A stretch of DNA of 64,000 nucleotides. Origin: an uncultured Planctomycetota bacterium. GTDB taxonomy: Bacteria; Planctomycetota; SKW154; DAOVDS01. Shown piece after piece: positions 23,657-54,431 of this stretch. The translations under genes and the position numbers were made by a program. The notes below the pieces were generated by a model. That model ran no database searches, had not been told where the DNA came from, and was given only the letters and a program-made list of their open reading frames with translations. The stretch spans positions 65 to 64,064 of the forward strand of contig CAZXNM010000010.1 in the NCBI GenBank assembly GCA_964641955.1, given 5' to 3'. Numbering within the stretch: position 1 is the first letter of the stretch; each line of letters opens with the position of its first letter.

Positions 23657-23716
23657 GCCCTGACTCCTTTCAAACCTTGCTAGCTATCCTTTGCCTTGAT
23701 TTCTCCTGGTCCCACT

Positions 23717-24382: not shown

Positions 24383-24398
24383 GTCAGCTCCATCCCGG

Positions 24399-26258: not shown

Positions 26259-26748
26259 GCTTCTCGCCCTTCGGTGCTTTCCTGTATTTCTTGAGAATAT
26301 CCTTAACCTTCCCAGGAGTCATCTGGCCGTGGTATGTGCCATCTACGACCACGATGGGGCCGAGCGCACACGCACCGAGGCAGTTGACCGTCTCGAGCGT
26401 AAATTTCATGTCCCCGGACGTCTCGCCGGCCTTGATGCCCAACTCGCGCTGCAGCTCGTCGAGAACAGCCGGCGCTCCGCGAACGTGGCAGGCCGTCCCG
26501 AGGCAGACGCTGACAAGGTGTTCTCCCCTGGGCTTCAGGCTGAACGCCCGGAAGAACGTAGCGACCCCGTAGACCTGGATGTGGGGCAGGTTCAAGCTGT
26601 CGGCAACGCGCCTGAGAGCCTCTTCGGGCAGGTAATGATATTCGGATTGAATATCCTGCAGAATGGAGATAAGCGAGTCGCGGTTCCTGCCGTTTCTGTC
26701 GATTATCTTATCCACCCTTCGGGCAATACCCTCTACTCTCCGTATCAT
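26233..26748 (-). CDS. NuoE/HndA-like thioredoxin-fold [2Fe-2S] protein (24-kDa-subunit homolog)
   Basis: The four Cys of the NuoE cluster are present (CLGTACHVRG...CLGACALGP). Overlaps the nuoF-like start by 26 nt. Confidence 0.8.
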   Translation of the reverse strand: MIRRVEGIARRVDKIIDRNGRNRDSLISILQDIQSEYHYLPEEALRRVADSLNLPHIQVYGVATFFRAFSLKPRGEHLVSVCLGTACHVRGAPAVLDELQRELGIKAGETSGDMKFTLETVNCLGACALGPIVVVDGTYHGQMTPGKVKDILKKYRKAPKGEKHEKVAVGD

Positions 26749-26751
26749 TGT

Positions 26752-27060
26752 CTATGACCTTCCTTCGCTGAGTTTTCTGGCATAGCTTAGGTAGTGCCTG
26801 AGCAGCCACATCTTCTCCATATACTCGCTCCAGCCACACTCGGGCTTGAAGCCCTTTTCCGCCCTCGGAAGCACCATGCATCCTTCGGTCACGCAGCCTT
26901 TCATCTCTTCCCACATGTCAGACCAGACCTTCAGCGCATCCCGCAAAACAGAGGCGGTGACATTCCTGAGATGTCTGAGCTTCTTTTCGGGCGTGCAGAG
27001 TTCTGACAGGAGTTCGCCGTCTTTGCCAACGCCTATCGGTACGTCAAACTTCCCGCGCAT
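26752..27060 (-). CDS. Small conserved hypothetical protein (102 aa), paralog of the upstream gene
   Basis: ATG at 27060 with GAGGAGG at spacing 8; the ORF track extends to 27138. The C-terminal half (ALKVWSDMWEEMKG...LRHYLSYARKLSEG) matches the upstream paralog (ALEIWMEISRACN...LGHYLDYTRRLCDG). Stop lies 3 nt before the nuoE-like start. Confidence 0.45.
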   Translation of the reverse strand: MRGKFDVPIGVGKDGELLSELCTPEKKLRHLRNVTASVLRDALKVWSDMWEEMKGCVTEGCMVLPRAEKGFKPECGWSEYMEKMWLLRHYLSYARKLSEGRS

Positions 27061-27436
27061 CCGTTGTTCCTCCTCTTTTTTCTCGAGCGGCAATTGAGCC
27101 GTCACAGAGCCTTCGTGTATAATCGAGGTAATGCCCAAGCAGGTCGAGCTTCCTCCTCAAATCATCCCAGCCATGCAAAGGAAGCCGACTGGCGGGTTGT
27201 TCATCACCCTCAAGAATTTGCTCAACAGAGCGCACGTCATTACAGGCTCTGGAAATCTCCATCCAGATCTCAAGAGCCTTATTGATGATTGTGGCAGAGA
27301 TTCCCATGAAGTGCCTCATCTGGGCATTTACGCGTTCCATTTCTTTACGGAGATGCTCGTCATGACTGCTCACTGGAGAATCATGCGCATCCTTCAGGTT
27401 GTTACTTCTTCTTACCACCAGAAATAATCCTCTCAC
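27044..27436 (-). CDS. Small conserved hypothetical protein, first gene of the sigma54-controlled operon (start uncertain)
   Basis: GTG at 27436. Internal ATGs at 27340 and at 27307 (the latter with GAGG at spacing 6) are alternative starts. Paralogous to the 26752..27060 product. Confidence 0.4.
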   Translation of the reverse strand: MRGLFLVVRRSNNLKDAHDSPVSSHDEHLRKEMERVNAQMRHFMGISATIINKALEIWMEISRACNDVRSVEQILEGDEQPASRLPLHGWDDLRRKLDLLGHYLDYTRRLCDGSIAAREKRGGTTDAREV

Positions 27437-27693
27437 TTCAGATAATCACTGCCTCTCGCAGGTCCGGGATTTCAACTTCACTGCTGTTGAGGTTTATCTT
27501 CCGAATTGTTTCGTTCCTTCTCCGACAGCGTCGCGGACGGCTTCACCTGCGTATCTTCTTCAAACTCATCGCACTCAAGCACCCAGCCTTCAGGCTTTAT
27601 GTATGTACATGTTCCTCTCTTCTTGCAGCGTTCACAAATGCCCCGGGTCACAGGCAGTTACCTTCTAAAAATTCACAGAAACAGCGCCGAATT

Positions 27694-27712
27694 AAGCAAC
27701 CTGCGTGCCACT
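27694..27712 (-). promoter_or_regulatory. Sigma54 (-24/-12) promoter: minus-strand TGGCACG-cagg-TTGCT driving the operon below
   Basis: Minus-strand read of 27712..27696 is TGGCACGCAGGTTGCTT, matching the consensus TGGCACG-N4-TTGCW with GG-N10-GC spacing exact. Predicted start site near 27684, about 250 nt upstream of the first operon gene and next to an NtrC-family activator gene. Confidence 0.6.
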
Positions 27713-27737
27713 TGTGGTTAACTAAAGGAGTTGAATC

Positions 27738-27923
27738 GCAACCTCTTGCCATAAAAGGACTTGAGGTTGCACAAAGCCTTTGCCTGTCGGAGAAAGCGGG
27801 ACGACCTCTGCTGCTAGTGCAACAGCAATGCTGTCTTGCGCTGCACTAAGGCATCTAACATATTGTCAGACAAGGGCTTATGGATGTGTGCAAGGATTGA
27901 ACACTACTGATGGATTTCCATCA
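27738..27923. promoter_or_regulatory. Three palindromes upstream of the sigma54 promoter (candidate enhancer/UAS sites)
   Basis: GCAACCTC-N17-GAGGTTGC at 27738-27770, TAGTGCA-N20-TGCACTA at 27815-27848, and TGATGGA-tt-TCCATCA at 27908-27923, all 25-215 bp upstream of the -24 element. Confidence 0.4.
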
Positions 27924-27931
27924 CGCATCAG

Positions 27932-29374
27932 CTATTCGGGGCTGCTGGTCACGATACCGTATTTCTTGATTCTGTGCCGCAGAGTGTTTCTGCTGACACC
28001 CAGCATTCTGGCGGCTTTGACCTGGTTGTTGCCGCATTCCCCGAGAGACCTTCTGACAAGCATTTCTTCAACCAAGTCTATGAGATTCGCATGTATCCCC
28101 TGACTGGAAATCTGGAGTACGTCGGATATCGCATCTTCAATTCTGGCTTTGACGTTAGCGAGGAGTTTCTCTTGGATTCCAGTGCGAGAAATGTCTTTCT
28201 CGTCTTCAAGTTCTATATGCTCATCAGCAACAACATCGCTCTTGCAGATTAGAATCGCCCGCTTTATACAGTTCTCAAGCTCCCTTACGTTGCCCGGCCA
28301 TGAGTACGACTGGAGCTTTCTTATCGCCGTATCGGCAACGAATCGCACCGGTTTGTCGAGTTCCTTGCCGAAACGTCCGACAAAGTAATCTACAAGAGCA
28401 GGGATGTCTTCCAGGCGTCTCCGTAGAGGAGGAAGGTCGATGGAGATCACCTTGAGGCGCCAGTACAAGTCTTCTCTGAACTTCCCTTCCTCGACCTCCT
28501 TTTCCAGATTCTTGTTAGTGGCCGCTATCATGCGCACGTTTATCTTGACAGTCTCCGAACCTCCAAGCCTTTCAAACTCTCCTTCCTGCAGTACTCTCAA
28601 CACCTTGGACTGAGTGGATAGCGACATATCTCCTATCTCATCGAAGAACAGCGTGCCGTTGTTGCATCTCTCAAACTTGCCGATGAAACTGCGATCGGCA
28701 CCGGTAAAAGCACCGCGCTCGTATCCAAACAGCTCACTTTCAAAGAGGTTGTCGGGTATAGCCGCGCAGTTTATCGCTAAAAAGGGCTTGTCTTTCCTGT
28801 GACTGTGGTGGTATATCGCCCTCGCGACAAGCTCCTTTCCCGTCCCGCTCTCCCCTGTTATCAGGACACTAACGTCCTTACCCGCGACCTGTCCAATGAG
28901 CTTGAATACTTCCTGCATTCTCTGGTGGCTGCCGACAATCTTGACGACGCCCTTGCCCGCCGGAGAGACCTTACTCACGTCGTGAGGGAAGCTAACAACC
29001 TCTTTCATTAAACGGTTCACTTCGAGTGCATCTGCAGCTATCCTTTTAAGCTGCTCCATGTCGAAAGGCTTGAGCAGGTAATCGTACGCACCCAGCTTCA
29101 TAGCTTCGATGGCGGTTTCCGTCGTTCCGTATGCAGTCATAATTATCACGGGCGTCTTGAGTTGCGCTTTCCTGATTTCCTTGAGCGTCTCAAGCCCGCT
29201 CAATCCCGGCATCTTGTAGTCAAGCAAGACCAAGTCGAATTGTTCCTCCGACAATCGCTTGAGCGCTGAGGTGCCGTCGGTGCATGTGCTCACATTATAT
29301 TTCTGCTTCGTGAACAGCCGCTTCAGGAAATGCAGCAGACTCTCATCATTGTCAACCAGCAGTATCTTATCCAT
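27932..29374 (-). CDS. Sigma54-dependent response regulator (NtrC/Fis family; receiver, AAA+ and HTH domains)
   Basis: From the ATG: MDKILLVDNDESLL...D54-like LLDYKMPG, a sigma54-interaction domain (GESGTGKELVARAIH, GAFTGA, ESELFGYERGAFTGA) and a C-terminal Fis-type HTH (VKAARMLGVSRNTLRHRIKKYGI). The ORF track begins at an upstream TTG (29464). Confidence 0.85.
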   Translation of the reverse strand: MDKILLVDNDESLLHFLKRLFTKQKYNVSTCTDGTSALKRLSEEQFDLVLLDYKMPGLSGLETLKEIRKAQLKTPVIIMTAYGTTETAIEAMKLGAYDYLLKPFDMEQLKRIAADALEVNRLMKEVVSFPHDVSKVSPAGKGVVKIVGSHQRMQEVFKLIGQVAGKDVSVLITGESGTGKELVARAIYHHSHRKDKPFLAINCAAIPDNLFESELFGYERGAFTGADRSFIGKFERCNNGTLFFDEIGDMSLSTQSKVLRVLQEGEFERLGGSETVKINVRMIAATNKNLEKEVEEGKFREDLYWRLKVISIDLPPLRRRLEDIPALVDYFVGRFGKELDKPVRFVADTAIRKLQSYSWPGNVRELENCIKRAILICKSDVVADEHIELEDEKDISRTGIQEKLLANVKARIEDAISDVLQISSQGIHANLIDLVEEMLVRRSLGECGNNQVKAARMLGVSRNTLRHRIKKYGIVTSSPE

Positions 29375-29429
29375 GTGCTCTGTCACCTTCCGAGGTCTTG
29401 AGGCGGGAAGCTGTTCTCTGCTGCCGGCC

Positions 29430-31274
29430 CTAGTCGCCTCGCTCGTGTACCACGGGAAGAACAATCGAGAAACTCGACCCCTTTCCCTGTTTACTCTCTA
29501 CATGGATTTCTCCTCCATGCGCCCGTATGGTGGTTTGGGCAATTGAGAGTCCCAGCCCCGTTCCCGACGCCTTTGTAGTGAAGAACGGGTCAAACAATTT
29601 CAGGATGGATTCTGATTCTATCCCAGGGCCCGTATCACCCACCTCGATTCGCACACAATTTTGCAACCTGCCATCAAGCTCCTCGCGGCCAGAAGTCGCC
29701 CTTATGGTCAAGACGCCCTTCACGGTCATGGCCTCAAGTGCATTCACCAGAAGATTCAGGAGAGCTTCGCCGAGTTGCTTCTTGTCACCTCTTATATCCG
29801 GGAGGCCATTGGCGATGTCCTTTCTGACGATGGTCTCCTGCTGGTAGGCTTTCGGCTGGACGACGAGAAATGAGTCATCAATCAGCTGCGCGATATTCAC
29901 GGTCGAGAAGACAGGTTCCTGGGGTTTGGCGAAATCGAGGAACCGGTTTATCGTCGCCTCTATCCGCTTTACCTGCAACATGGCAAGCTCGAAATCCTTT
30001 GTGTATTCTGGCGAGATTTCTATCTCGCTTTTCACCGACTGCAGAAAGAGCTTCAATGACGAAAGCGGCGTTCTTATCTCATGCGTGACACCGGCTGCCA
30101 GCTGCCCAAGTGCGGCAAGCCGCTGCGACCTGGCTGCCGCTTCCTCGGTTCTGCGCAGCTTCACGTCGGTTTCTTTCAATTCCGTCTGTGTTGACTCTAC
30201 TTTTTCCTCGAGGCTGTTGTGTTTGGCCTGAAGCTGACTCGCCATGTTGCCAAACGCAGTGTAGAGAACGCCTATCTCGTCGCCGCGGTCCGTCTTCAAC
30301 TGCGTACCCGTAAAATCGCCTCTCGCCAACATGTCCGCCGCGCTGCTCAGTCGTTCTACTGGCCTGGCGATGTAGTACCCGAGGAGCCAAGCAACTGCGA
30401 TGGCGGCGAGGATTGACAGGATAAATACTGTAAGCACGTAGCGCTTCAGTCGATCCGAGCTTTCAAATGCTTCATCCCTGTCCTGCTCGACCACGAGATG
30501 CCAATCCGTGCCAGAAACACCACGTGTTGCTCCAAGAACTTCGATACCCCTGTAGTCCGTGTAGGCACTCTTCCGGTTTCTCTTGCCAAAGATGTTCTTG
30601 AAGCTCCCCGACTGGGCTATGCTCTCAGAAAGAATCCGTTGGGGCTCCTTGTGCGCAAGGAAGGTTCCCTCCTTGTCCACAAGATAGCATTCGCCTGTCC
30701 GGCCAAGAGAAACCTTGAGCACTATGGAAGAAATCGCCTCCGTGCCCACCACTTCGCAGATAACACCACGGATTGCGCCTTTCTCGCCGTATATCGGCGC
30801 TGAAATCCGAAAGACAGATTCGTTCCAGTGCGGCTCGATACTGATTTCGGACAGATACAGCTCGCCAGCCCGGGCCCGTTTGAACCATTCCTCGCCTGAA
30901 TGGTCTCCCTTTTCCGGGGAGTTATTGAAAAGAGTGTCCCCATCCTTGTTGACAATCATAAATCCCCTGTAAACCCCGTATTCTTTCCCGACAAGCTCGA
31001 TATACGGGCGCATCAGGGACGGGTCCATCGCTTTCACCACAGACGAACCGGCTATTACCCGAGCATCCGCCTTGCGTTCCAAGAGCCACCTTTCAACCAG
31101 GTCCCTCTTGTCGTTGGCAACATTTTCCAGGCGGCTGGTTACCATGTTCGTGATAAGCTCATCCGCAGTGTGCACTGAGAAGACACTTACTACTCCCAAA
31201 GGCACGATTGATACTATCATGAAGAGTAGCATTACTCTGACGTGAAGCCTGTTGAGGAATCCGACAGCTGCCAA
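29430..31274 (-). CDS. Sensor histidine kinase (extracytoplasmic Cache/PDC-like sensor, HAMP, HisKA, HATPase_c)
   Basis: N-terminal transmembrane helix, a sensor domain of about 250 aa, a second helix, HAMP, an H-box (LAAGVTHEIRTPLSSL), and N/G1/G2 boxes (LLNLLVNALEAM, DTGPGI, GTGLGLSI). Its 3' end overlaps the regulator gene. Confidence 0.8.
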   Translation of the reverse strand: MAAVGFLNRLHVRVMLLFMIVSIVPLGVVSVFSVHTADELITNMVTSRLENVANDKRDLVERWLLERKADARVIAGSSVVKAMDPSLMRPYIELVGKEYGVYRGFMIVNKDGDTLFNNSPEKGDHSGEEWFKRARAGELYLSEISIEPHWNESVFRISAPIYGEKGAIRGVICEVVGTEAISSIVLKVSLGRTGECYLVDKEGTFLAHKEPQRILSESIAQSGSFKNIFGKRNRKSAYTDYRGIEVLGATRGVSGTDWHLVVEQDRDEAFESSDRLKRYVLTVFILSILAAIAVAWLLGYYIARPVERLSSAADMLARGDFTGTQLKTDRGDEIGVLYTAFGNMASQLQAKHNSLEEKVESTQTELKETDVKLRRTEEAAARSQRLAALGQLAAGVTHEIRTPLSSLKLFLQSVKSEIEISPEYTKDFELAMLQVKRIEATINRFLDFAKPQEPVFSTVNIAQLIDDSFLVVQPKAYQQETIVRKDIANGLPDIRGDKKQLGEALLNLLVNALEAMTVKGVLTIRATSGREELDGRLQNCVRIEVGDTGPGIESESILKLFDPFFTTKASGTGLGLSIAQTTIRAHGGEIHVESKQGKGSSFSIVLPVVHERGD

Positions 31275-31356
31275 GAGAACTTCCTTCCCTGTTGTAGCTT
31301 ATGGCCTCACTGACATTCTACCAGTTGTTTCGCCAGCGTCAACCTTGCCTGCGAGG

Positions 31357-31392
31357 GAAATGGCGGCAGGTTGTCAAACCTGCCGCCATTTC
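31357..31392. terminator. 14-bp perfect hairpin (GAAATGGCGGCAGG-ttgtcaaa-CCTGCCGCCATTTC) between the GltB-like paralog 2 and the kinase gene
   Basis: Seen directly in sequence. A T-run follows on the plus strand only. It may act as a terminator or processing element separating the gdh-gltB2 unit from the two-component genes. Confidence 0.35.
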
Positions 31393-31420
31393 TTTATCCT
31401 TCGCTCGAAGCAGTGCCCGC

Positions 31421-33010
31421 TCACGAATTTAGGATTTCTTCCGCCTGAGACCTATAAGCATCCATGACGTATGGAATGCCCGTAATATCGGTGCATTCCC
31501 TCGAAAGGCTCATGAGGTCATCGCGGGAAATCTTGTCGAGAGTGAAGTGCCGGGCTCCAGCCATCAGCTGCTGAAGTCCGACCGACATCTTCTGGGCGTA
31601 CGAGTATATTCCAATCGCGCCCAGCGGTATGTTCTTCATCTCGTCCTTGCCGACTATGTCTGCCACTTCCTCCCAGCAGACGAAAAGCTCTTCCGGCTTC
31701 GCGCCGTAGCCTTCAAGTGACTTGGGCAGATTGTTGTCCTTGATCCACTCGGCTGCGTTCTTGCCGACCATACCGGGTATCATAAGCGCGCGTCCCATGC
31801 AGATTGCCTTCACGTAAGGAGCGCCAAGCGCGATAGCCTTGAAGGCATGGTCTTCTGCGCTGAATCCGCCTGCAAACGCCAGGTCGGGAACCCTCTCGCC
31901 ATTCTTGGTCAGCTTATCGGCAAACTGGACTGCCGCAGCGTGCAGGTGCAGAGTCGGCACGCCCCACTCGTTCATCATGCGCCACGGGCTCATGCCGGTA
32001 CCGCCACCAGCGCCGTCTATCGTGAGAAGGTCAACTTCGCCCTTGCTGCCCCATTTGAGGGCCATGGCGAGTTCGCGAAGACCGTAGGCCCCAGTCTTGA
32101 GAGTGATTCTCTCGAATCCGATCTTACGCAAACGGTCACATTCCGCGAGGAACGACTCCTCGCTTATGAAGCCCAGCCTGCTGTGACGCTCGAATTCCTT
32201 TATCGCTCCGTCCTTGAATGCGGCCTGAACGACAGGATCCTCGGGGTCGGGTGTCACGATGTAGCCCCGGCCCTTCAACTGCAGTGCTCTTTCCAGTGAG
32301 CCTATCTTTATCTCGCCGCCGATGCATTTCGCGCCCTGGCCCCACTTGAGTTCTATCGTGTTCAGGCCGTGCTTCTCGTGAACGTACTCCCCAACACCAA
32401 GCCGGGTGTCTTCTACGTTCATCTGAACGAGAATCTCACCGTAACCTCTGTGGTAGCGCTTGTAGACCTCCATGCGGCGGTCCATGTCGGGCGCTTTGAC
32501 GACCTTGCCGTTCTTGAGCTCAAGCTTGGGGTCAATACCGCAGACATTCTCGCCACATACGATGGTGCATCCGGCCAGTGCCGCGCCGATTGCGAAGTGC
32601 TCCCAGTTCGCCCGTGCTATTTCCGTTGAACCCAGCGCACCTGTAAAGAACGGGGCGAGCATCTTGACTTTCTTCTCCCAGCCGTACTCGGTTTCAACAC
32701 TTACAGCGGGAAAAGTACATGTGTCAGGGTTTGCATCTACGCCCTCAGGGAGCCCATCGCCGCCAAGTGCGTAACCCTGGATGTTAAGGTGCGTGTAGTC
32801 AACGGGATAGTCCTTGTCGGCACCTGCGGTTACCTTGCCGAACGGTCCCGGGTAGATAAGTTCCCTGCCCCGGAAAGTTGCCAGCCAGACTTCGCAAGTA
32901 CCGCGACAACCATCAACGCACCGTGAACATAAACCTGAAAGCGGCGCCACGCTCCGCGACCTGTTTGAGGTCTTGGTGGCATCATCTGCATTTGGCCTCT
33001 GCAGCGTCAT
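31421..33010 (-). CDS. Standalone glutamate-synthase central-domain (FMN/Fe-S) protein, paralog 2
   Basis: Colinear with the 22079..23656 product (CSRCVDGCRGTCEV ... MSPWRMMNEWGVP ... same C-terminal region) at about 40% identity. AAGGAAGG RBS. Confidence 0.8.
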   Translation of the reverse strand: MTLQRPNADDATKTSNRSRSVAPLSGLCSRCVDGCRGTCEVWLATFRGRELIYPGPFGKVTAGADKDYPVDYTHLNIQGYALGGDGLPEGVDANPDTCTFPAVSVETEYGWEKKVKMLAPFFTGALGSTEIARANWEHFAIGAALAGCTIVCGENVCGIDPKLELKNGKVVKAPDMDRRMEVYKRYHRGYGEILVQMNVEDTRLGVGEYVHEKHGLNTIELKWGQGAKCIGGEIKIGSLERALQLKGRGYIVTPDPEDPVVQAAFKDGAIKEFERHSRLGFISEESFLAECDRLRKIGFERITLKTGAYGLRELAMALKWGSKGEVDLLTIDGAGGGTGMSPWRMMNEWGVPTLHLHAAAVQFADKLTKNGERVPDLAFAGGFSAEDHAFKAIALGAPYVKAICMGRALMIPGMVGKNAAEWIKDNNLPKSLEGYGAKPEELFVCWEEVADIVGKDEMKNIPLGAIGIYSYAQKMSVGLQQLMAGARHFTLDKISRDDLMSLSRECTDITGIPYVMDAYRSQAEEILNS

Positions 33011-33507
33011 CTCGACCTTCCTTTCTCTATAAAACCCTGTCTAAACCGAATCCCAAACACGTGTGCCTATTTTCACCCCCTTCTTGCTATCGGTCTGAAG
33101 ACTCGTTCGAAAAGACCAATGACAGCCAACCTTGTCTATGCAAACCCCGAATCACCGGGGACAGCAACATACTGGCGAGGCAGATGTGTCCGGACTGGAT
33201 TTCGTGACGAAGCAGGGCGGGTGGGTTGTGCAAAACCTCTTCTGCGGCAACCATACAGCGCGTTTCTGGCAAAATATAACCTCCTGGCCCTTTGCTTGTC
33301 ATGCTCCCACTCCTTTTGCATGCATGACACGGCCGAGGAGGTACCTTGGTAACCACCAAATCTTGCCAAAAGCAGCCCAAGTCATAGTATGACTTGAGCT
33401 GCATTCAGCCCTGAGGAGGGCAGTCCCCCCACGGGTAGCACAGCCGTTGCTGTCTCAGCTGCTGGTGGTTCCTCGGCACCTCAAAACCCTTAATTAACCC
33501 GGTTGTC

Positions 33508-34629
33508 TTACAGATTGTGCTTGCGGAACCCCATGGCCGCCTTCACCCTCTCCTTGGCCATGTTGATTGCCGCGTCCCTGGGCAGGTCGCCGCCCTTGAC
33601 CCTGTCGAGAAGTTCCTTCACGTTCTGCTCGATTCTGAATTTGATGAACGGGAAGACCTCGTTTTCGCTCTTGTCGTGATACTCAAGGGCACCACAGATG
33701 ACTCCGCCGGCATTGGCGATGAAGTCCGGTATGACCAGGACGCCCCTTTTGTGAAGCTCGGCCTCCGCCTCGACTGTCGCGGGAATGTTTGCGCCCTGAA
33801 CAATCAGCCTGGCCTTGACGCCCGCGACGTTGTCCATGGTGATGCAGTCCGGCCTTGCTGAAGGATAGAGAATGTCGCACTCGGCCGTGACGACATCCTC
33901 TTTCTTCGAGAGCTTCTCGGCTTTCTTGTAATCCGTGACCTTGCCGGTCTTGGCCTTGACCTTGACGAGTTCATCGACGTCGATGCCGTCGGGGTTGTAG
34001 ATGGCGCCCTTGCTGTCGCTGGCGCCGACGAGAATCGCGCCCCTCTCGTCCATGAATTGCGCCGTGGGCCGGCCCACGTTGCCGAACCCCTCGATGACGT
34101 ACTTGGAGCCTTTGATGTCTATCTTCGCCGTCGGGGCGGCCACTTCGGTCGCAATTACGCAGCCGTACGCGGTCGCGCCGATTTCATCAAGCGGAATGCC
34201 GCCGAGGCTCCTCGGCAGGCCGACGCAGCGCCCTATCTCGTCGAAGACGTACGCCATGCTGCCTTCGTCGGTGCCCATGTCCGGGCCGGGGATGTACTCG
34301 GTGACGTTGCGAATCATCCGGGCGAAGGTGCGAATCAGTTCTTCGCGCTTCTCCTCGGGCTGGGTCGGGTCGGCGATAATGCCGGATTTCCCGCCGCCGT
34401 GCTTCAGGCCAGCCGCAGCGTTCTTAAAGGTCATGCCCCTGGCGAGCCTGAAAACCTCGGTTGTCGTGACATCGGGCACCATCCTGACGCCGCCTATCGC
34501 GGGGCCCCTCGCCACGTTGTCAACGCATACTATAGCTCTCAGCCCCACTTTCGGCTCATAGAGATGCATTACTCTCATGGGACCAATATCATCCTGCAGA
34601 TTTTCGCAGATGAAATCGCAAGGTTCCAT
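33508..34629 (-). CDS. Glu/Leu/Phe/Val-family amino-acid dehydrogenase (glutamate dehydrogenase-like)
   Basis: A GGxK active-site region (KHGGGKSGI) and an NAD(P) Rossmann motif (GFGNVG), 373 aa. GGAGGTG RBS 5 nt before the ATG at 34629. Confidence 0.85.
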   Translation of the reverse strand: MEPCDFICENLQDDIGPMRVMHLYEPKVGLRAIVCVDNVARGPAIGGVRMVPDVTTTEVFRLARGMTFKNAAAGLKHGGGKSGIIADPTQPEEKREELIRTFARMIRNVTEYIPGPDMGTDEGSMAYVFDEIGRCVGLPRSLGGIPLDEIGATAYGCVIATEVAAPTAKIDIKGSKYVIEGFGNVGRPTAQFMDERGAILVGASDSKGAIYNPDGIDVDELVKVKAKTGKVTDYKKAEKLSKKEDVVTAECDILYPSARPDCITMDNVAGVKARLIVQGANIPATVEAEAELHKRGVLVIPDFIANAGGVICGALEYHDKSENEVFPFIKFRIEQNVKELLDRVKGGDLPRDAAINMAKERVKAAMGFRKHNL

Positions 34630-36420: not shown

Positions 36421-36834
36421 GTGGCTCTGCTCGGCAAAGGCGCGAAAGCAAGCGGGGCGATGGCTGTCATCGTCGTTCTCTCGATAATCATCATAACTAC
36501 CGACCTTGCCTCTTACGACCGGAAGGGATTTGTAAAGGTCTTCGGTATCGGCGCTGCAGCGGGCTTCTGCGCAAGTATGTTCGCAACGATGCTTATGAAG
36601 CGCAGGGCCGCAAACCTCAGGCTCAAGAACCTCGTCGTTACCGTCGGGGCGCTCCTGGGAGGTGCCGCCATCCTGTCCGCCGATTCTGTTGCGCTGTACC
36701 TTGCCGGGCAGCCCGGTATTGACCAGAAGGGCGTCTATTTGCTCAACTATGCCATAGGCTACTTTGCGGTCGGCGTGTCCATGGACACAATAAGAGTAAT
36801 AAGAGCAATGCACAGGCAGAACGCCAAGAAATGA
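36421..36834 (+). CDS. Small membrane protein (about 4 transmembrane helices)
   Basis: Hydrophobic segments only, with no recognised family. The start could be the internal ATG. Confidence 0.35.
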   Translation: MALLGKGAKASGAMAVIVVLSIIIITTDLASYDRKGFVKVFGIGAAAGFCASMFATMLMKRRAANLRLKNLVVTVGALLGGAAILSADSVALYLAGQPGIDQKGVYLLNYAIGYFAVGVSMDTIRVIRAMHRQNAKK

Positions 36835-36843
36835 GGTGATAAT

Positions 36844-37464
36844 TTGGAAGAAAAGATTCTCGTCATCCCGAGGGCGAAGCTGTTCGCGGGAATGGAGACC
36901 CCCCAAGGCTTCGGCACGGAAAGCCTCGCGCAGCTTGTCGAGCGCATTCGAGACTTCCACGAGTTCGCCGACCGCAGGGCCGCGGAGGAAGACCCCTCGC
37001 TAAAGCAGATAATCCCCTACATGGTGCTCGTCAGCGACCGGAAGGTCTTCCTGATGCGCCGGTTCGACAACCAGGATGAGGAAAGGCTCAGGAACCTCTA
37101 CTCGCTCGGTGTGGGAGGCCACATAAATCCCGCCGAGGATGCGGGCGAATCGGACATCCTGATGGCGGGGCTCCGGCGCGAGCTTGGCGAAGAGGTACAA
37201 ATCGCGGGCAGCTTCGAGCTTGAACCCGCCGGCTACATTAACGACGAAACCAACGCCGTCGGGCAGGTTCATTTCGGCCTCGCCTACAAGGTTGCAGTTC
37301 AGGGCGAAGCAGCCGAAGTGCGCGAGAAGGACATCATGTCCGGCAGCTTCGTCAGCGTCGAGGAGCTTCAGTCGGCATACCCCGAGATGGAGACCTGGTC
37401 GCAGATTATTTTTAGGAATATCGATGCGTTCGTCCCGGAAGCCTCTCAACCGCAGGGAGAATAG
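36844..37464 (+). CDS. NUDIX-like hydrolase (degenerate Nudix box)
   Basis: GVGGHINPAEDAGESDILMAGLRRELGEEV approximates the Nudix box Gx5Ex7REUxEExGU. Confidence 0.4.
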   Translation: MEEKILVIPRAKLFAGMETPQGFGTESLAQLVERIRDFHEFADRRAAEEDPSLKQIIPYMVLVSDRKVFLMRRFDNQDEERLRNLYSLGVGGHINPAEDAGESDILMAGLRRELGEEVQIAGSFELEPAGYINDETNAVGQVHFGLAYKVAVQGEAAEVREKDIMSGSFVSVEELQSAYPEMETWSQIIFRNIDAFVPEASQPQGE

Positions 37465-37581: not shown

Positions 37582-39351
37582 GTGAGTCTGCTGCGTTATA
37601 TTTCGAGAATCATACTCCTAATTGTCCTGTCGTCTGTCTTGCTGGCGACAGGGCACAGTGTCAATGCACAGGAAAAGGCCTCTGCGCCTGAGATACGCCG
37701 GCAAATCACAGACCTGCTCAAGAGAAGAGATGATGTCAGATTCAGCGATTCCACCATTGACAGTTTCGCAAAGCTGGGCGAGCCGACTGTCGAGAATCTT
37801 GTCAGCGTGTTGAAAAACAACAAAAATCCCATGTTCAGGCTCTATGCCGCAATCGTACTCGGTGCACTCGGTGACAGCCGGGCGGTTGAGCCGCTGATCG
37901 GCGTCCTCGACGACGTCGACGAGAATAGTCGGAGGTATGCAGCTGCATCGCTCGGCATGATAGGCAACCCGAAAGCGGTCAAGGCCCTGGCTGGAGTTCT
38001 TGAAGACAAGGATTCCGGCGTTCGGGTATCTGCCGTGGACGCGCTCGGCAGGATCGGCACTAAGGAAACTTTGAAACCCCTTATCGGCGCCCTGCAGGAT
38101 AAGGACCGGTATGTGCGAATGAGTGCAGCGGAAATGCTGGGCAGGATAGGACGCAGGAGCGCCGCCGCGCCTCTTATACAAGTTCTCAATGACCAAAACG
38201 CGGATGTCCGCGACAAAGCTGCCCGAGCACTTGGCAGGATAAAGGATGCCGCGTGCATCAAGCCGCTGGTCAAGCTGCTGAAGAACGACCTCGAAACTTC
38301 GCAGTATGCAGTAAAGAAAGCTCTGGCTGATGTTGGCGCCACAGCGGTTCCGGCAGTCTTAGAATTCCTTGACTCCCAGAACCCCAAACTGAGAGAGTGC
38401 GCCGCAGAGATACTCGGTCGCATTGGGAATGCCGAATCGGTATCCCGTCTCGTGAAGATACTGAGAGATACCGAGCCTGGTGTATATAAAGCCGCAGCCG
38501 AGGCGCTGGGAAAAATCGGCGACCGGAAGGCTGTCGCACCTCTGATTGACATGCTGAGCGGTCAATATGACAGCCGGCGCCTCGCTGCCGCGCGTGCGCT
38601 TGGAAAGCTGCGCGACAAGTCGGCTGTGAGGCAGCTCGGCCGCATGCTCCTTGACACCAACCCCGAGCTGCGTTCTGCTGCGGCCACGGCCCTCGCGGAA
38701 ATCGGTGACAAGTCGGCAGAGCAATCGCTGAAGGATGCTTTGGGGCGGGAAAAGAAGGCAAGAGAGCCGGACGCCCTGTGTGATATTGCGGCTGCACTCG
38801 TGAAAATCAGCGGCAGCAGCAAAGCGCTCGAATACATCAAGAAACAGCTCAAGACCGGCGGCGTGAAGGAGCGCCGCAGAGCGCTCCACGCCCTGGCGCG
38901 AACGGGAAAGACGGAGGCGGTCACCCCGATACTGGAAATAGCCAAATCGGGCAAAGGGTTAGACAAGTTGGAAGCTGTTTATACCCTCGGTAATGTGCGT
39001 GACAAAAGGGCAGTCGAGACATTGATAGAGGTGCTTAACGACAAATCCTCGTCCTCTCACTGCAGAGATGGTGCAGCATTCGCCCTGGGCAAGGTTGGCG
39101 ACAGGGCGGCAGTCGAACCTCTTATCCGGACCATTGACAGCGAGAGTTCATTTCCTCTAGCAGATAATATCACAGCACTCGGGAAACTGGGCGACAAGAA
39201 GGCAGTAGAGCCGCTTATCGAGGCGCTGAGGCATTCGGACGATCACGTCTACTCCGCGGCGGCTGAGGCGCTCAGGAAGCTCACAAGCGAGAATCACGGC
39301 GAAAGTTACTACAGATGGAAACAATGGTTCAAGAATCGTAAGGACAAGTAG
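37582..39351 (+). CDS. Secreted HEAT-repeat (PBS-lyase type) protein, about 16 repeats
   Basis: GTG start, signal peptide (LLIVLSSVLLATGHSVNA). Repeated xxVRxxAAxALGxIGDxxAVxPLIxxLxD units throughout the 589-aa product. Confidence 0.7.
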   Translation: MSLLRYISRIILLIVLSSVLLATGHSVNAQEKASAPEIRRQITDLLKRRDDVRFSDSTIDSFAKLGEPTVENLVSVLKNNKNPMFRLYAAIVLGALGDSRAVEPLIGVLDDVDENSRRYAAASLGMIGNPKAVKALAGVLEDKDSGVRVSAVDALGRIGTKETLKPLIGALQDKDRYVRMSAAEMLGRIGRRSAAAPLIQVLNDQNADVRDKAARALGRIKDAACIKPLVKLLKNDLETSQYAVKKALADVGATAVPAVLEFLDSQNPKLRECAAEILGRIGNAESVSRLVKILRDTEPGVYKAAAEALGKIGDRKAVAPLIDMLSGQYDSRRLAAARALGKLRDKSAVRQLGRMLLDTNPELRSAAATALAEIGDKSAEQSLKDALGREKKAREPDALCDIAAALVKISGSSKALEYIKKQLKTGGVKERRRALHALARTGKTEAVTPILEIAKSGKGLDKLEAVYTLGNVRDKRAVETLIEVLNDKSSSSHCRDGAAFALGKVGDRAAVEPLIRTIDSESSFPLADNITALGKLGDKKAVEPLIEALRHSDDHVYSAAAEALRKLTSENHGESYYRWKQWFKNRKDK

Positions 39352-39356
39352 CCCGG

Positions 39357-40217
39357 CTACAGCACTGCCGCCGTCTTTCTTCGCGACACAAGCAGCAGAC
39401 CGAAAGCGCCGGCAAGGAAAACGACACTCGACCATCCGGAAGGAGCCTCGGGAGACAGCGCGCAGCCGCTCTTCTTGCTCCTCGGCAGGAGCGCAGCCTT
39501 CGCCGCAGCCCAGGCATTGTACTCGTCGCGCAGCGTGTCAATCGGGTCTTCGCTGCCAGCGGCCTCCGGGGTCGAGGGAACATCTATATCCAGGTACGGA
39601 CTTGCGCCATCGCCCGGTTTCAGCACCGTGATGAACGCCGACAGGGCCGTCTTACCGTAGGAAGTGCAACGCGCATCCCCGCCGGCATCATCGCCAGCCT
39701 CCAGCACCGCCATGAGCCGTTTGGCAAGGCTGCCGCTCGTGCCCCTGAACGCAGTCTCCATATCGTCGAGCACGGTCTGGTCTACCAGGATGTTGCCTTG
39801 CACGGAGTACACGAAGTCGCCGATTGTCCCGGTGCGATGGCCTTTCTCGGCGTCGGCGTTGCTCCCTGTGAACGCATCCACCCTGCCCTCCAGGTCAACT
39901 ATCCCATACTGGCGCCACTGGTGATTGGCATCCTCTATCGCGAGCTGTGCTATAATCTCAGCAGGTGTGTAGCCGAGCTGCATGAGTTCCCGGGCTCTAT
40001 CGCGGTATGTCGGGCTGAGGTATGCCTGCGCCGCGATTGCACCCACGCCCTCGACCAGGGCGCGAAGCATCGAGCAGTTGTCAATTCACGATGCGCCCGC
40101 AATCCCGACCTCGCCGGTCCGCAGATTCACTCCAACAACCGAATAAGTCGCGTACGCGGGCGCACACATCGCTATCACAAGCACGACCGCACCGCCGATT
40201 AATGTAATCCGCCTCAT
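39357..40217 (-). pseudogene. DUF1028-family (Ntn-hydrolase-like) gene interrupted by an in-frame TGA at 40086-40088; signal peptide plus PEP-CTERM-like tail
   Basis: ATG at 40217 (GGAGG at spacing 6) gives MRRITLIGGAVVLVIAMCAPAYA|TYSVVGVNLRTGEVGIAGAS, then TGA. The same frame continues IDNCSMLRALVEGVGAIAAQAYLSP... to 39357 and is colinear with DUF1028 (TFSIVA..TGE.GVAVASK..AVG...AGVGAIATQ). C-terminus: ...SPEAPSGWSSVVFLAGAFGLLLVSRRK.... Confidence 0.5.
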
Positions 40218-40315
40218 GAAACACCTCCCATCCCTTGTACACATCCCAAGCGGTTTTGTTCCATATCAGGCAGGCTGCACTGGACAAGCGCAGTTCCATC
40301 GAGTAGCCTGAGTAC

Positions 40316-40831: not shown

Positions 40832-40889
40832 CGCTGCAGCGTAACGCTATATAATGCATATCTTCACATCCAGCTTAAAGGAGCGGAAC

Positions 40890-41600
40890 ATGAGGAAACT
40901 TGCCCTGATTTCTGTTGTACTTGTGCTTTCGACTGCGGTGCTGGGATGCTCGAAGAGGGAATTTTATTCCGACGCTTCGGACCGCTACTACTCTGCAATG
41001 CTCGGGCCAGTCGCGGACTGCGAGTATCCGGTGCTGACCTTCAGGATGCCGGACGGCTCGCTCAAAGAGCTTGACATAAACGGCATTCCGACGCGCAGCT
41101 TCTGGGGCGCGCAGCTTATATGCCAGTCCTGTAACGACCCGGCAAACTGGAAAGTCCTGAGGCGGCAGGGCGTCAGCCTCGCTGTGATTTTCGAAGCCGC
41201 CGGAATCGACCTCCCTGATTCGACGCCCGTTAACTTCATTGGTCGCGACGGCTGGGACCCGTGGCGTACGGTGCTGGGCTGCAACCCCGACAAGCTCATG
41301 ACCTTCGGCTACCTGCGTGAGAACACTTACATCTACGTCGGCAGCCCGGGCTTGAAAGACCCGTCGCTTCCGGTTGACGCTCCCGGCAACTACGCCAAGG
41401 ACCCGCTCTACCCCGCGATGGAGGGGAAGAGTCTCTGCCTCGGCTTCGATTTCGAGACAGTAGAGGGCGCCCAGGCGGAAGCTTACATCTGGGGCATGGA
41501 ATGTCCCGCGGAAGGGTGCTTCGGGCAATACCGATACAGCATGCTCGAGAAATACTCCGGGTCGATGCGCGGCATTATCGAGATTGACCCGCAGCCGTAG
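40890..41600 (+). CDS. Hypothetical Cys-rich lipoprotein
   Basis: ATG at 40890 with AAGGAG at spacing 6. MRKLALISVVLVLSTAVLGC lipobox. Confidence 0.45.
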   Translation: MRKLALISVVLVLSTAVLGCSKREFYSDASDRYYSAMLGPVADCEYPVLTFRMPDGSLKELDINGIPTRSFWGAQLICQSCNDPANWKVLRRQGVSLAVIFEAAGIDLPDSTPVNFIGRDGWDPWRTVLGCNPDKLMTFGYLRENTYIYVGSPGLKDPSLPVDAPGNYAKDPLYPAMEGKSLCLGFDFETVEGAQAEAYIWGMECPAEGCFGQYRYSMLEKYSGSMRGIIEIDPQP

Positions 41601-52985: not shown

Positions 52986-54431
52986 GTGGAAGAATACTAC
53001 GAAGAAAGACTGAAGAAGGCTGAAGAACTCCGGGAAAAGGGCATTGACCCTTACGGCCACAGGTTCGACGGCACCGCGCCCATAGAAGACGTTGTCGCAA
53101 ACTTCACGGAGGGCAGCGAGGAGAAAATCCGCATCGCCGGCAGGATTATGGCCATGCGAAGCCACGGCAAGGCCGCCTTCTTCGACGTGCACGACAGGAC
53201 CGGCAAGGTACAGGCATACGTCAAGAGGAACGCGATTGGCGACGAGGCTTTCGAGGTCTTCAGGATGCTCGACATCGGGGACATTATCGGCCTCGAGGGG
53301 CCGGTCGCGAAGACGCGCACGGGAGAAATTACCGTCTTCGTCGAGAAGTTCGAGCTTCTCTCCAAGGCGCTCATGCCCATGCCGGAAAAGTGGCACGGCC
53401 TGAAGGATGTCGAGCTGAGGTACCGCAGGCGATACGTTGACCTGGTCGCCAACCCGCAGTCAAAAGAAACCTTCATGCGCAGAATAAAGGCCATTGCGCG
53501 CATAAGGGAAATCCTGCACGCACGCGGGTTCATCGAGGTGGAAACCCCGGTAATGCACTCGATACCCGGCGGGGCGGCGGCGAGGCCTTTCGTTACGCAC
53601 CACAACGCGCTGGATATCGACCTGTACCTGCGCATAGCCCTCGAACTACACCTGAAGCGCCTGCTCGTCGGCGGACTCGAGCGCGTCTTCGAAATCAGCC
53701 GCGTGTTCCGCAACGAGGGCATCTCCACGAGGCATTCGCCCGAGTTCACCATGCTGGAACTCTACCAGGCTTACGGCAACTACGAAACCATGATGGAGAT
53801 AACCGAAGAGGTTTTCTCTACGCTCGCCGTCGAGGTATGCGGCAGCCACGAAGTCACTTACGGAGGCAAGACTTTCGACCTCAAGCCCCCCTACCCTAAG
53901 CGCACTTACGCCGAGCTGTTCGAAGAGCACGCGGGTTTCTCCATGAACGACGAGGCGGCAGTGAGGAAGAACGTGGCCGAACTCGAGCAGACTGTTGACG
54001 GCGGCCTCAGCGTATGGGCCATGGTTGATGTGCTCTTCGAGCACTACGTTGAGCCGAAGCTCGACGGGCCGGTCTTCGTGATTGACTATCCTGTCGCCAT
54101 CTGCCCGCTGGCGAAGCAGAAGACGGGCAGTCCCGAAATCGCCGAGCGCTTCGAGCTTTACATAGGCTCCGTCGAAGTGGCCAATGCATTCACCGAGCTT
54201 AACGACCCAGTAGAACAGAGAAAGCGCTTCGAGGAGCAGGCGCAGCACCTGGCGGACGTGACCGGCAAAATCGACGAGGACTACGTTCTCGCCCTGAGCT
54301 ACGGGATGCCGCCTGCGGGCGGGCTCGGGATAGGAATCGACCGGTTGGTCATGCTTCTCACGGACAGTCATTCGATACGCGACGTAATCCTGTTCCCGCT
54401 CCTCAAACCTCCTGACAAGGCGAAACAGTAA
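52986..54431 (+). CDS. lysS: Lysine--tRNA ligase (class II)
   Basis: N-terminal anticodon-binding OB fold (RIMAMRSHGKAAFFDVHDRTGKVQ) and class II motifs 1-3 (the last being GGLGIGIDRLVMLLT). 481 aa, ends at TAA. Confidence 0.9.
   Translation: MEEYYEERLKKAEELREKGIDPYGHRFDGTAPIEDVVANFTEGSEEKIRIAGRIMAMRSHGKAAFFDVHDRTGKVQAYVKRNAIGDEAFEVFRMLDIGDIIGLEGPVAKTRTGEITVFVEKFELLSKALMPMPEKWHGLKDVELRYRRRYVDLVANPQSKETFMRRIKAIARIREILHARGFIEVETPVMHSIPGGAAARPFVTHHNALDIDLYLRIALELHLKRLLVGGLERVFEISRVFRNEGISTRHSPEFTMLELYQAYGNYETMMEITEEVFSTLAVEVCGSHEVTYGGKTFDLKPPYPKRTYAELFEEHAGFSMNDEAAVRKNVAELEQTVDGGLSVWAMVDVLFEHYVEPKLDGPVFVIDYPVAICPLAKQKTGSPEIAERFELYIGSVEVANAFTELNDPVEQRKRFEEQAQHLADVTGKIDEDYVLALSYGMPPAGGLGIGIDRLVMLLTDSHSIRDVILFPLLKPPDKAKQ

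What the first reader, a model, noticed from the sequence alone, without database searches (positions are those of the whole stretch)
40080..40095. In-frame TGA interrupting an otherwise intact DUF1028 (Ntn-hydrolase-like) gene
The frame reads MRRITLIGGAVVLVIAMCAPAYA|TYSVVGVNLRTGEVGIAGAS-TGA-IDNCSMLRALVEGVGAIAAQ.... It is colinear with DUF1028 through the stop codon, and the stop aligns to a Lys/Arg position, not Cys. Both halves look intact: the 5' part has an RBS, signal peptide and Ntn Thr; the 3' part has a PEP-CTERM-like tail. This suggests a very recent nonsense mutation, a sequencing error, or programmed readthrough. Re-initiation at the ATG 15 nt downstream would yield a product lacking the signal peptide and the nucleophile.
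Basis: seen in the sequence. Interest (0 to 1): 0.55.

Follow-up and report, generated by a model that had tools for sequence, protein, structure and literature searches.

The report
Selenocysteine codon in secreted DUF1028 enzyme
The "stop" inside this gene is most likely a selenocysteine codon, conserved in every close relative and followed by the hairpin bacteria use to read UGA as selenocysteine, so this would be a selenoprotein family missing from current catalogues.

Summary
The in-frame TGA is real. It lies on the minus strand at 40086-40088, as codon 44 of a 286-codon DUF1028 gene (39357-40217).

It is not a recent mutation or a sequencing error:
- The same TGA sits at the same codon in 7 other distinct orthologues from independent metagenomes. 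They are 59-89% identical downstream of the stop, or 81-93% in the N-terminal piece where only that was recovered.
- An independent assembly carries the identical gene.
- A ninth orthologue, for which no DNA was available, is called as the same two-gene split.
- Codons on both sides are under purifying selection.

In the secreted subfamily this gene belongs to, 143 of 143 Cys-type homologue sites found in the fetched loci carry Cys at that position.

A hairpin, CGCGCCCU-GGUCG-AGGGCGUG, has its loop starting 29 nt after the UGA. It meets every criterion of the published bacterial SECIS model. Nineteen of its 21 nt are invariant across orthologues, including synonymous sites.

TGA is an ordinary stop elsewhere in the window, so the genetic code is standard.

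Best explanation (about 0.85): a Sec-UGA/SECIS selenoprotein gene. A 2026 catalogue of 119 prokaryotic selenoprotein families does not list DUF1028.

Unproven: no selA, selB, selD or tRNA-Sec lies in these 64 kb, the stem shows no compensatory covariation, and there is no experimental evidence.

The parts
39357..40217 (-). Full recoded coding sequence: 286 codons plus a TAG stop, with UGA (proposed Sec) at codon 44. Encodes a secreted DUF1028 / Ntn-hydrolase-fold protein.
   Evidence: Translation. Pfam DUF1028 match across the stop. Gene callers split it into a 43-aa and a 237-aa gene here and in all orthologues.
40224..40229 (-). Ribosome-binding site GGGAGG, 6 nt upstream of the ATG at 40215-40217.
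   Evidence: Read directly from the sequence.
40149..40217 (-). Signal peptide MRRITLIGGAVVLVIAMCAPAYA. An AxA cut would expose Thr as residue 1.
   Evidence: Sequence. The mature start T[WY]S is invariant in 137 distinct homologues, and the listed homologues show a small-x-Ala site just before it. Cleavage itself is inferred.
40089..40148 (-). Mature N-terminus TYSVVGVNLRTGEVGIAGAS (strands 1 and 2 of the Ntn fold). Thr1 codon at 40146-40148.
   Evidence: Between orthologues, 7-11 synonymous against 0-2 non-synonymous codon differences in these 20 codons. The AlphaFold2 model of Cys homologue P0010 has strands 21-28 and 33-40 with the Cys at residue 41, right after strand 2.
40086..40088 (-). 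In-frame UGA, proposed selenocysteine codon (mature residue 21).
   Evidence: Conserved TGA in 8 distinct orthologous DNA sequences. Cys at 143/143 Cys-type homologue sites.
40074..40076 (-). Cys four residues after the UGA (U-I-D-N-C). Present in most Sec-clade members but absent in L008; Phe in most Cys homologues.
40044..40064 (-). Candidate SECIS upper stem-loop CGCGCCCU-GGUCG-AGGGCGUG. The 5-nt loop is at 40052-40056 and starts 29 nt after the UGA.
   Evidence: Folding. A 19-nt run is invariant in 6 orthologues while the next longest run is 5 nt. 7 of 8 stem pairs never vary in 8 sequences, and one changes G-U to G-C. It meets the bSECIS criteria quoted from PMC13188914.
40034..40072 (-). 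Possible extended or lower stem around the hairpin (weakly supported).
   Evidence: Present in the MFE folds, but the pairings differ between orthologues and there is no significant covariation.
39666..39668 (-). Second invariant Cys (mature residue 161, in GGDARC). Candidate partner of Sec21.
   Evidence: Cys in 137/137 subfamily members. Across DUF1028, positions 21 and 161 co-vary as C..C (47), R/K..G (13) and C..G (2). Spatial contact is inferred, not measured.
39360..39476 (-). C-terminal sorting-type tail KKSGC + hydrophobic helix + RRK (MYXO-CTERM-like).
   Evidence: NCBIfam TIGR03901 at 19.4 bits against a cut-off of 20, with no PEP-CTERM hit. The G-C of this motif is invariant in 7 orthologues.

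Best explanation
The TGA at 40086-40088 (minus strand) is a selenocysteine codon, and the 43-aa and 237-aa 'genes' are one selenoprotein gene. Shown: the codon, its conservation in orthologues, the Cys at this position in homologues, and a conserved hairpin that fits the SECIS model. Inferred mechanism: while the ribosome translates the mRNA, SelB carrying Sec-tRNA(Sec) binds the hairpin CGCGCCCU-GGUCG-AGGGCGUG, whose loop starts 29 nt after the UGA, and Sec is inserted instead of termination. The 286-residue product is exported. Signal peptidase cuts after AYA and so exposes Thr1, the nucleophile position of the Ntn-hydrolase fold. A C-terminal GC + helix + RRK tail (MYXO-CTERM-like) probably anchors or sorts the protein at the cell surface. 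Sec is mature residue 21, directly after beta-strand 2. In the strand 1-strand 2 hairpin that places it next to Thr1. It replaces a Cys that is invariant in this secreted subfamily. It may form a selenenylsulfide, or act as a redox or nucleophilic pair, with the other invariant Cys at residue 161 (GGDxRC). The enzyme's substrate is unknown.
For: (1) The same in-frame TGA at the same codon occurs in 8 distinct orthologous DNA sequences (window/L089, L150, L001-3, L151, L004/5/153, L006/152, L007, L008/154). They share 59-89% identity downstream of the stop, or 81-93% in the N-terminal piece where only that was recovered, and come from independent samples. A ninth orthologue is split the same way but has no DNA. 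(2) Cys is aligned at 143 of 143 Cys-type homologue sites in the fetched loci, mostly Planctomycetota MAGs, and in PDB 2IMH. (3) Both sides are under purifying selection in one frame: 7-11 synonymous against 0-2 non-synonymous codon differences in the 20 codons before the TGA. (4) All 6 sequences tested meet the published bSECIS constraints: loop 5 nt (allowed 3-9), upper stem 8-10 bp (4-16), G in the first two loop positions (GGUCG), spacing 29 nt (16-37), MFE -20 to -28 kcal/mol (threshold -7.5). (5) The hairpin is conserved at nucleotide level. Six consecutive codons (RALVEG) are identical in all sequences, while only 23 of 113 invariant degenerate amino-acid columns keep one codon. The invariant run is 19 nt against a next-longest of 5 nt. 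The shuffle p is about 0.009. (6) A hairpin this strong is rare: 3 of 400 random TGAs in the window and 3 of 127 Cys homologues. Among TGAs with open frames on both sides, only this site and one out-of-frame site inside nadA have one. (7) TGA is a normal stop here: about 16 of 52 genes, including the complete UvrD helicase. (8) Some Planctomycetes have full Sec machinery (PMC4807772), and the window's LysRS is nearest to Planctomycetota.
Against: No selA, selB, selD or tRNA-Sec lies in the 64-kb window or in the short orthologous contigs, so Sec competence of the organism is unverified. The hairpin stem is invariant, so there is no compensatory covariation; the only stem changes are one G-U to G-C and one lost pair. 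The loose bSECIS model alone has low specificity: 55% of Cys homologues and 37% of random TGAs pass it. Four of the six invariant codons are the preferred codons of this genome, which softens the synonymous-site argument. There is no selenium-labelling, proteomic or ribosome-profiling evidence. The phylum assignment is weak (55-58% LysRS identity to named relatives).
Confidence: 0.85

Rival explanations
1. SECIS-independent recoding: the UGA is read through at low level by a near-cognate tRNA (Trp, Cys or Arg) or by another programmed readthrough signal, and the conserved hairpin merely stimulates readthrough.
For: The frame is conserved on both sides and a structure lies downstream. No Sec machinery was seen in the window.
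Against: The aligned residue is an invariant Cys, which is the classic Sec/Cys signature. The hairpin has the spacing and G-G/U loop of bacterial SECIS elements. I know of no case where readthrough is conserved over this divergence in place of a simple TGC/TGT codon (own knowledge).
Confidence: 0.07
2. Two genuine separate products: a 43-aa secreted peptide, plus a 237-aa cytoplasmic protein re-initiated downstream of the stop.
For: Gene callers annotate it this way everywhere. In the window an ATG lies 15 nt after the stop.
Against: One Pfam domain and one predicted fold span the stop. Strands 1 and 2 with the Thr nucleophile would be on the short piece. The downstream ATG is missing in L007 and L008. 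The same-frame relation is kept in all orthologues. The 237-aa piece keeps a C-terminal export or sorting tail but would have no signal peptide.
Confidence: 0.04
3. Pseudogene: a nonsense mutation inactivated the gene.
For: An in-frame stop in an otherwise intact gene.
Against: The TGA is shared by 8 orthologues down to 59% identity. There are no other stops or frameshifts, and synonymous changes far outnumber non-synonymous ones upstream of the stop.
Confidence: 0.02
4. Sequencing or assembly error, or a lineage-wide reassignment of TGA (genetic code 4 or 25).
For: None beyond the stop itself.
Against: The identical sequence occurs in an independent Logan assembly, and orthologues from about nine other samples carry the TGA. 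TGA ends about 16 of 52 genes in the window, for example uvrD at 4410.
Confidence: 0.01

Closest known systems
Bacterial selenoprotein genes decoded by UGA plus an in-ORF SECIS hairpin bound by SelB (prototype: E. coli fdhF)
   Same: An in-frame UGA aligned to Cys in homologues. A hairpin immediately downstream inside the coding sequence, with a small apical loop starting G-G-U and spacing within 16-37 nt. From my own knowledge, the fdhF loop also contains GGUC with G and U contacting SelB.
   Different: The host protein family (DUF1028, Ntn-hydrolase fold) is absent from the 119 families and subfamilies catalogued in 2026. The loop starts 29 nt after the UGA, which from memory is about 10 nt further than in fdhF. 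The machinery and Sec incorporation have not been demonstrated.
Cys-containing secreted DUF1028 proteins of Planctomycetota and other MAGs (e.g. P0009/P0010, P0037, L009-L149)
   Same: The same architecture: signal peptide, AxA|T(W/Y)S...A(S/T)-C......GGDxRC..., and often a Cys-containing C-terminal sorting tail. They are 30-45% identical.
   Different: They use TGC/TGT where this clade uses TGA, and they lack the RALVEG-encoding hairpin. Only 3 of 127 have any comparably strong hairpin there.
SPO2555 of Silicibacter pomeroyi (PDB 2IMH), the only solved DUF1028 structure
   Same: The same fold: the model of homologue P0010 matches it with TM 0.81 and E 2.7e-15. It has Thr at the start and Cys at the aligned position 21.
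   Different: It is cytoplasmic (no signal peptide) and has Gly instead of the second Cys at position 161. It has no Sec and no published function that I could find.
Thr1 Ntn hydrolases: proteasome beta subunits, HslV, BPH
   Same: Next-best structural matches (Foldseek E 3e-5 to 1e-2). An N-terminal Thr nucleophile on strand 1.
   Different: Sequence identity is only 12-17% and RMSD is large. Those enzymes are self-compartmentalised cytoplasmic proteases activated by autoprocessing. Here the Thr would be exposed by signal peptidase, and a Cys/Sec sits beside it.

Membership tests
Bacterial selenoprotein gene (Sec-UGA recoding) | In-frame UGA conserved in orthologues, with intact coding sequence under selection on both sides | tested here: met
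   8 distinct orthologous DNA sequences carry the TGA. 7-11 synonymous against 0-2 non-synonymous codon differences upstream, and 35-63 synonymous against 17-52 non-synonymous downstream.
Bacterial selenoprotein gene (Sec-UGA recoding) | Cys-containing homologues aligned at the UGA (Sec/Cys pair) | tested here: met
   143/143 Cys-type homologue sites, 137/137 distinct mature sequences with the 5 Sec-clade members scored as Cys, and 2IMH.
Bacterial selenoprotein gene (Sec-UGA recoding) | [quoted passage not shown] | tested here: met
   Loop GGUCG, stem 8-10 bp, spacing 29 nt, -20 to -28 kcal/mol in the 6 sequences tested. Criteria taken from PMC13188914. The model alone is permissive, but this hairpin is far stronger than background and its nucleotides are invariant.
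Bacterial selenoprotein gene (Sec-UGA recoding) | Compensatory covariation supporting the SECIS stem | tested here: inconclusive
   7 of 8 upper-stem pairs never vary, and one changes G-U to G-C. The covariation score is no better than the shuffles.
Bacterial selenoprotein gene (Sec-UGA recoding) | selA, selB, selC (tRNA-Sec) and selD present in the same genome | tested here: inconclusive
   None in the 64-kb window or the orthologous contigs. The rest of the genome was not available. Some Planctomycetes do have the full set.
Bacterial selenoprotein gene (Sec-UGA recoding) | Selenium actually incorporated (75Se labelling or mass spectrometry) | not testable with these tools
   Requires an experiment.
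DUF1028 (PF06267), Ntn-hydrolase superfamily | Pfam model match above the gathering score | tested here: met
   143.7 bits against 26.2, residues 24-218, profile positions 1-188 of 193.
DUF1028 (PF06267), Ntn-hydrolase superfamily | Ntn fold with the nucleophile as first residue of the mature chain | tested here: met
   Thr directly follows the AYA signal-peptidase site. The model of homologue P0010 (pLDDT 88) matches 2IMH and proteasome beta subunits. Actual processing was not tested.
PEP-CTERM sorting signal | Match to a PEP-CTERM model, i.e. a conserved PEP motif before the helix | tested here: not met
   No PEP-CTERM hit. 'PE' is not conserved among the orthologue tails.
MYXO-CTERM sorting signal (TIGR03901) | Model score above the cut-off: Cys-containing motif + helix + basic cluster | tested here: inconclusive
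   19.4 bits against a cut-off of 20 for the tail alone. The G-C of the motif is invariant in orthologues.
Alternative genetic code with TGA as sense (codes 4 and 25) | TGA not used as a stop, and frequent in-frame TGA in genes | tested here: not met
   About 16 of 52 genes end in TGA. uvrD ends at a TGA with its domains complete.

The most novel reading that the evidence does not exclude
This is the first selenoenzyme with an Ntn-hydrolase fold. It would be a surface-anchored DUF1028 protein in which Sec sits beside the Thr1 nucleophile and pairs with the invariant Cys161. If so, the whole 'C..C' subfamily of secreted DUF1028 proteins, widespread in Planctomycetota, would use a redox-active or nucleophilic Cys/Sec in its chemistry rather than being plain Thr hydrolases.
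Probability: 0.45. Interest if true: 0.7.

Novelty: new member of a known kind. Interest (0 to 1): 0.6.

Why it matters
Selenocysteine almost always marks a catalytic, redox-active position. A Sec/Cys pair in DUF1028, a family with a solved structure but no known function, would therefore single out residue 21 next to the Thr nucleophile as functionally central. That gives a concrete hypothesis to test for hundreds of secreted homologues. It would also add a hydrolase-fold, exported, surface-anchored protein to a selenoproteome dominated by thioredoxin-fold oxidoreductases. Finally, it shows that every database entry for this clade is mis-annotated as two genes, a 43-aa 'hypothetical protein' and a truncated DUF1028.

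Tried and rejected
- Rfam (gathering threshold) and ARAGORN on the window found no RNA families and no tRNAs.
- Pfam over about 50 window ORFs found no selA, selB or selD and no other selenoprotein.
- The other large pair of ORFs joined by a TGA (2052-6593, minus strand) is two unrelated genes, UvrD helicase and Peptidase_C25. The 1475-aa plus-strand ORF over them is a shadow ORF.
- The in-frame extension upstream of gene 16221-18227 does not look coding.
- The 137-aa and NUDIX genes (36421-37464) share a frame here but not in L001, so they are two genes.
- Protein-based scans of genome contigs and metagenome contigs returned only Cys homologues at 46% identity or less. They served as controls but added no Sec-clade members.
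- Covariation counting on the hairpin was uninformative because the stem is invariant.
- I could not measure the Sec21-Cys161-Thr1 distances, because the structure tool returns no coordinates.
- Literature searches for DUF1028 with selenoprotein, and for Ntn hydrolase with selenocysteine, found nothing relevant.
- BSepDB supplementary tables were not available.
- Neighbouring genes are not conserved upstream of the orthologues (kinase, HEAT, thioredoxin-like, unknown), so there is no operon clue.

Full report
OBSERVATION. The gene lies on the minus strand. From the ATG at 40215-40217, which is preceded by GGGAGG with a 6-nt spacer, the frame reads MRRITLIGGAVVLVIAMCAPAYA-TYSVVGVNLRTGEVGIAGAS-TGA-IDNCSMLRALVEGVGAIAAQ... 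and ends at a TAG at 39357-39359. The TGA occupies + coordinates 40086-40088. A single Pfam DUF1028 match (E 7.9e-42; 143.7 bits against a gathering score of 26.2) runs straight through it, residues 24-218.

THE STOP IS OLD AND SHARED.
- A protein search showed that the nearest relatives, P0001-P0004, cover only 81-83% of the query and all begin at MLRALVEG. P0005 also starts there. P0006 and P0007 start at a GTG directly after the stop.
- A search with the 43-residue N-terminal piece found seven 43-aa 'hypothetical proteins' that end at ...GIA[GS]AS.
- Reading their contigs shows the same in-frame TGA at the same codon in eight distinct DNA sequences: window, L150, L001-3, L151, L004/5/153, L006/152, L007 and L008/154. 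They are 59-89% identical downstream of the stop, or 81-93% identical in the N-terminal piece where only that was recovered, and come from different sequencing projects.
- A ninth orthologue (P0002/P0123, no DNA available) is called as the same two-gene split, with the same 15-nt gap.
- An independent Logan assembly (L089) contains the window's gene base for base.
- This excludes a sequencing error and a recent mutation.

BOTH HALVES ARE UNDER SELECTION IN ONE FRAME. In the 20 mature codons before the TGA, orthologue pairs differ at 7-11 codons synonymously and at only 0-2 non-synonymously. Downstream, synonymous differences number 35-63 and non-synonymous 17-52 over 169 codons. No other stops or frameshifts occur.

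THE STOP ALIGNS WITH AN INVARIANT CYS.
- In 140 loci fetched by protein similarity, mostly Planctomycetota MAGs, the motif ...A-T-W-S-I...T-G-E-V-A-I-A-S-A-T-X was found 151 times. X was Cys 143 times and a stop 8 times, and all eight stops belong to the Sec clade.
- In 137 distinct mature sequences the fully invariant residues include T1, S3, E13, position 21 (Cys, with Sec in the five Sec-clade sequences), Q41, R79, G82, F93, G95, G118, G156, D158, R160 and C161.
- The solved DUF1028 structure 2IMH also has Cys at position 21.
- Across a broader alignment, positions 21 and 161 co-vary as C..C in 47 sequences, R/K..G in 13 and C..G in 2.
- A TGA aligned to a conserved Cys is the standard signature of selenocysteine.

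A SECIS-LIKE HAIRPIN.
- An 8-bp stem with a 5-nt loop, CGCGCCCU-GGUCG-AGGGCGUG, lies at 40064-40044 on the mRNA strand. Its loop starts 29 nt after the UGA.
- A 2026 review quotes the bacterial SECIS model as follows: loop 3-9 nt, upper stem 4-16 bp, at least one G in the first two loop positions (typically G[G|U]), 16-37 nt between the UGA and the loop, and MFE of -7.5 kcal/mol or lower (PMC13188914).
- All six sequences tested meet every criterion: loop GGUCG, spacing 29 nt, stem 8-10 bp, and -20 to -28 kcal/mol for a 45-nt window.
- That model is permissive. My implementation also accepts 70 of 127 Cys homologues and 147 of 400 random TGAs in the window.
- A hairpin with a stem of at least 8 bp and an energy of -19.9 kcal/mol or lower is rare, however: 3 of 127 Cys homologues and 3 of 400 random TGAs.
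- Among all TGAs in the window with open frames on both sides, only this one and an out-of-frame site inside nadA have such a hairpin.

THE HAIRPIN IS CONSERVED AT NUCLEOTIDE LEVEL.
- Only 23 of 113 invariant, degenerate amino-acid columns use one codon in all sequences. The six consecutive codons of the stem-loop (CGC GCC CTG GTC GAG GGC) are nevertheless identical in all of them.
- This gives a 19-nt invariant run, against a next-longest run of 5 nt anywhere in 570 nt.
- Shuffling the columns gives a run of six or more in 0.9% of trials. Four of the six codons are this genome's preferred codons, which weakens the argument somewhat.
- Because the stem is invariant there is no compensatory covariation. 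The only stem changes are one G-U to G-C (L007) and one lost terminal pair (L151).
- A lower stem can be drawn but is not supported.

GENETIC CODE AND MACHINERY.
- TGA ends about 16 of 52 predicted genes. One is a complete UvrD-type helicase whose TGA is followed in the same frame by an unrelated Peptidase_C25 gene. The organism therefore uses the standard code.
- Pfam scans of about 50 window ORFs found no selA, selB or selD. ARAGORN found no tRNA in the window or in the orthologous contigs.
- This is the main gap: Sec competence of the organism could not be checked.
- The window's LysRS is nearest (55-58% identity) to Planctomycetota and Brocadiales proteins.
- Full Sec-insertion gene sets are documented in several Planctomycetes (PMC4807772).

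THE PROTEIN.
- An AlphaFold2 model of the Cys homologue P0010 (pLDDT 88, pTM 0.81) has strand 1 at residues 21-28, beginning with the Thr, and strand 2 at residues 33-40. The Cys is residue 41.
- In an antiparallel hairpin this puts the Cys/Sec next to the N-terminal Thr. This is an inference, because no coordinates were available.
- The model matches 2IMH (TM 0.81, E 2.7e-15), and then proteasome beta subunits, BPH and HslV, which are Thr1 Ntn hydrolases.
- The homologues listed show a small-x-Ala site directly before the invariant T(W/Y)S, so signal peptidase rather than autoprocessing would expose the nucleophile.
- The C-terminal KKSGC + helix + RRK tail scores 19.4 bits against the MYXO-CTERM model (cut-off 20) and does not match PEP-CTERM.
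- Orthologues P0005-P0007 insert Big_1/Invasin_D3 Ig-like domains before the tail, which is consistent with surface display.
- Most Sec-clade members also have a Cys four residues after Sec (U-x-x-x-C), but L008 does not.

COMPARISON WITH WHAT IS KNOWN.
- The mechanism proposed is the ordinary bacterial one: UGA plus an in-ORF SECIS plus SelB.
- What appears new is the protein family. Table 1 of the May 2026 review lists 119 prokaryotic selenoprotein families and subfamilies with their domain identifiers, and neither PF06267/DUF1028 nor any Ntn hydrolase is among them.
- No paper in the searchable library mentions DUF1028 together with selenoprotein. DUF1028 itself appears in a single unrelated paper.
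- I therefore class it as a new member (a new family) of a known kind.

RIVALS.
- Hairpin-stimulated readthrough by a near-cognate tRNA cannot be excluded without data on the machinery or the protein, but it does not explain the Cys alignment (about 0.07).
- Two separate genes (about 0.04), a pseudogene (about 0.02) and an error or reassigned code (about 0.01) are contradicted by the results above.

VERDICT. The best-supported explanation, at about 0.85, is a previously uncatalogued, secreted, Ntn-fold selenoprotein with a conserved SECIS element.

Noticed in passing
window 1992-6593: The 1475-aa plus-strand ORF (1992-6419) has no Pfam hit and an abnormal GC1 of 0.82. It is a shadow of two real minus-strand genes: a UvrD-like helicase (4410-6593) and a Peptidase_C25 + He_PIG protein (2052-4367). 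These lie in the same frame separated by a single, ordinary TGA stop.
   Followed up: yes
window 20888-34629: A redox and nitrogen-metabolism cluster. It holds alanine dehydrogenase, two 525/529-aa Glu_synthase-domain proteins, a Fer2_4/Fer4 protein, NuoF-like and NuoE-like subunits, a sigma-54 response regulator with a Cache histidine kinase, and a Glu/Leu/Phe/Val dehydrogenase.
   Followed up: partly
loci L009-L149 and window 40146-40217: In the secreted DUF1028 homologues listed, the signal peptide ends in a small-x-Ala site directly before the Thr, and T(W/Y)S is invariant in all 137 distinct mature sequences. Export-coupled cleavage, not autoproteolysis, would therefore create the Ntn nucleophile.
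   Followed up: partly
window 39360-39476; P0005-P0007, P0021, P0037, P0046: The C-terminal GC-motif + helix + Arg-rich tail (MYXO-CTERM-like, just below cut-off) recurs in Sec and Cys relatives. Some orthologues insert Big_1/Invasin_D3 Ig domains or low-complexity linkers before it.
   Followed up: partly
window 37582-39351 compared with L001 and L006: A 589-aa HEAT-repeat gene sits between the DUF1028 gene and the NUDIX gene in the window. It is absent in orthologous loci, where NUDIX follows directly. Upstream neighbours also differ between orthologues (kinase, HEAT, unknown).
   Followed up: partly
L008 259-1302: In the most divergent Sec-clade orthologue, the gene upstream encodes a secreted protein with a tandem thioredoxin-like fold (Thioredoxin_2 at 32 bits, plus a weak Sep15/SelM hit) that lacks a CxxC motif. 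It could be a redox partner, but it is seen only at this locus.
   Followed up: partly
window 40854-41600: A conserved 248-aa predicted lipoprotein with no Pfam family keeps its place between Peptidase_M55 and the NTPase_1 gene, both here and in the contig of P0002.
   Followed up: no
L153 (after about position 905); L006/L152: Contig L153 diverges from its orthologues immediately after the hairpin. Two contigs from one sample (L006, L152) break at the TGA-hairpin region. These may be assembly breakpoints caused by strain variation.
   Followed up: no
window 52986-54431: The LysRS has a group of unnamed relatives at about 80% identity, but its nearest named relatives (Planctomycetota, Brocadiales) are only 55-58% identical. 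The organism therefore seems to belong to a poorly described lineage.
   Followed up: partly
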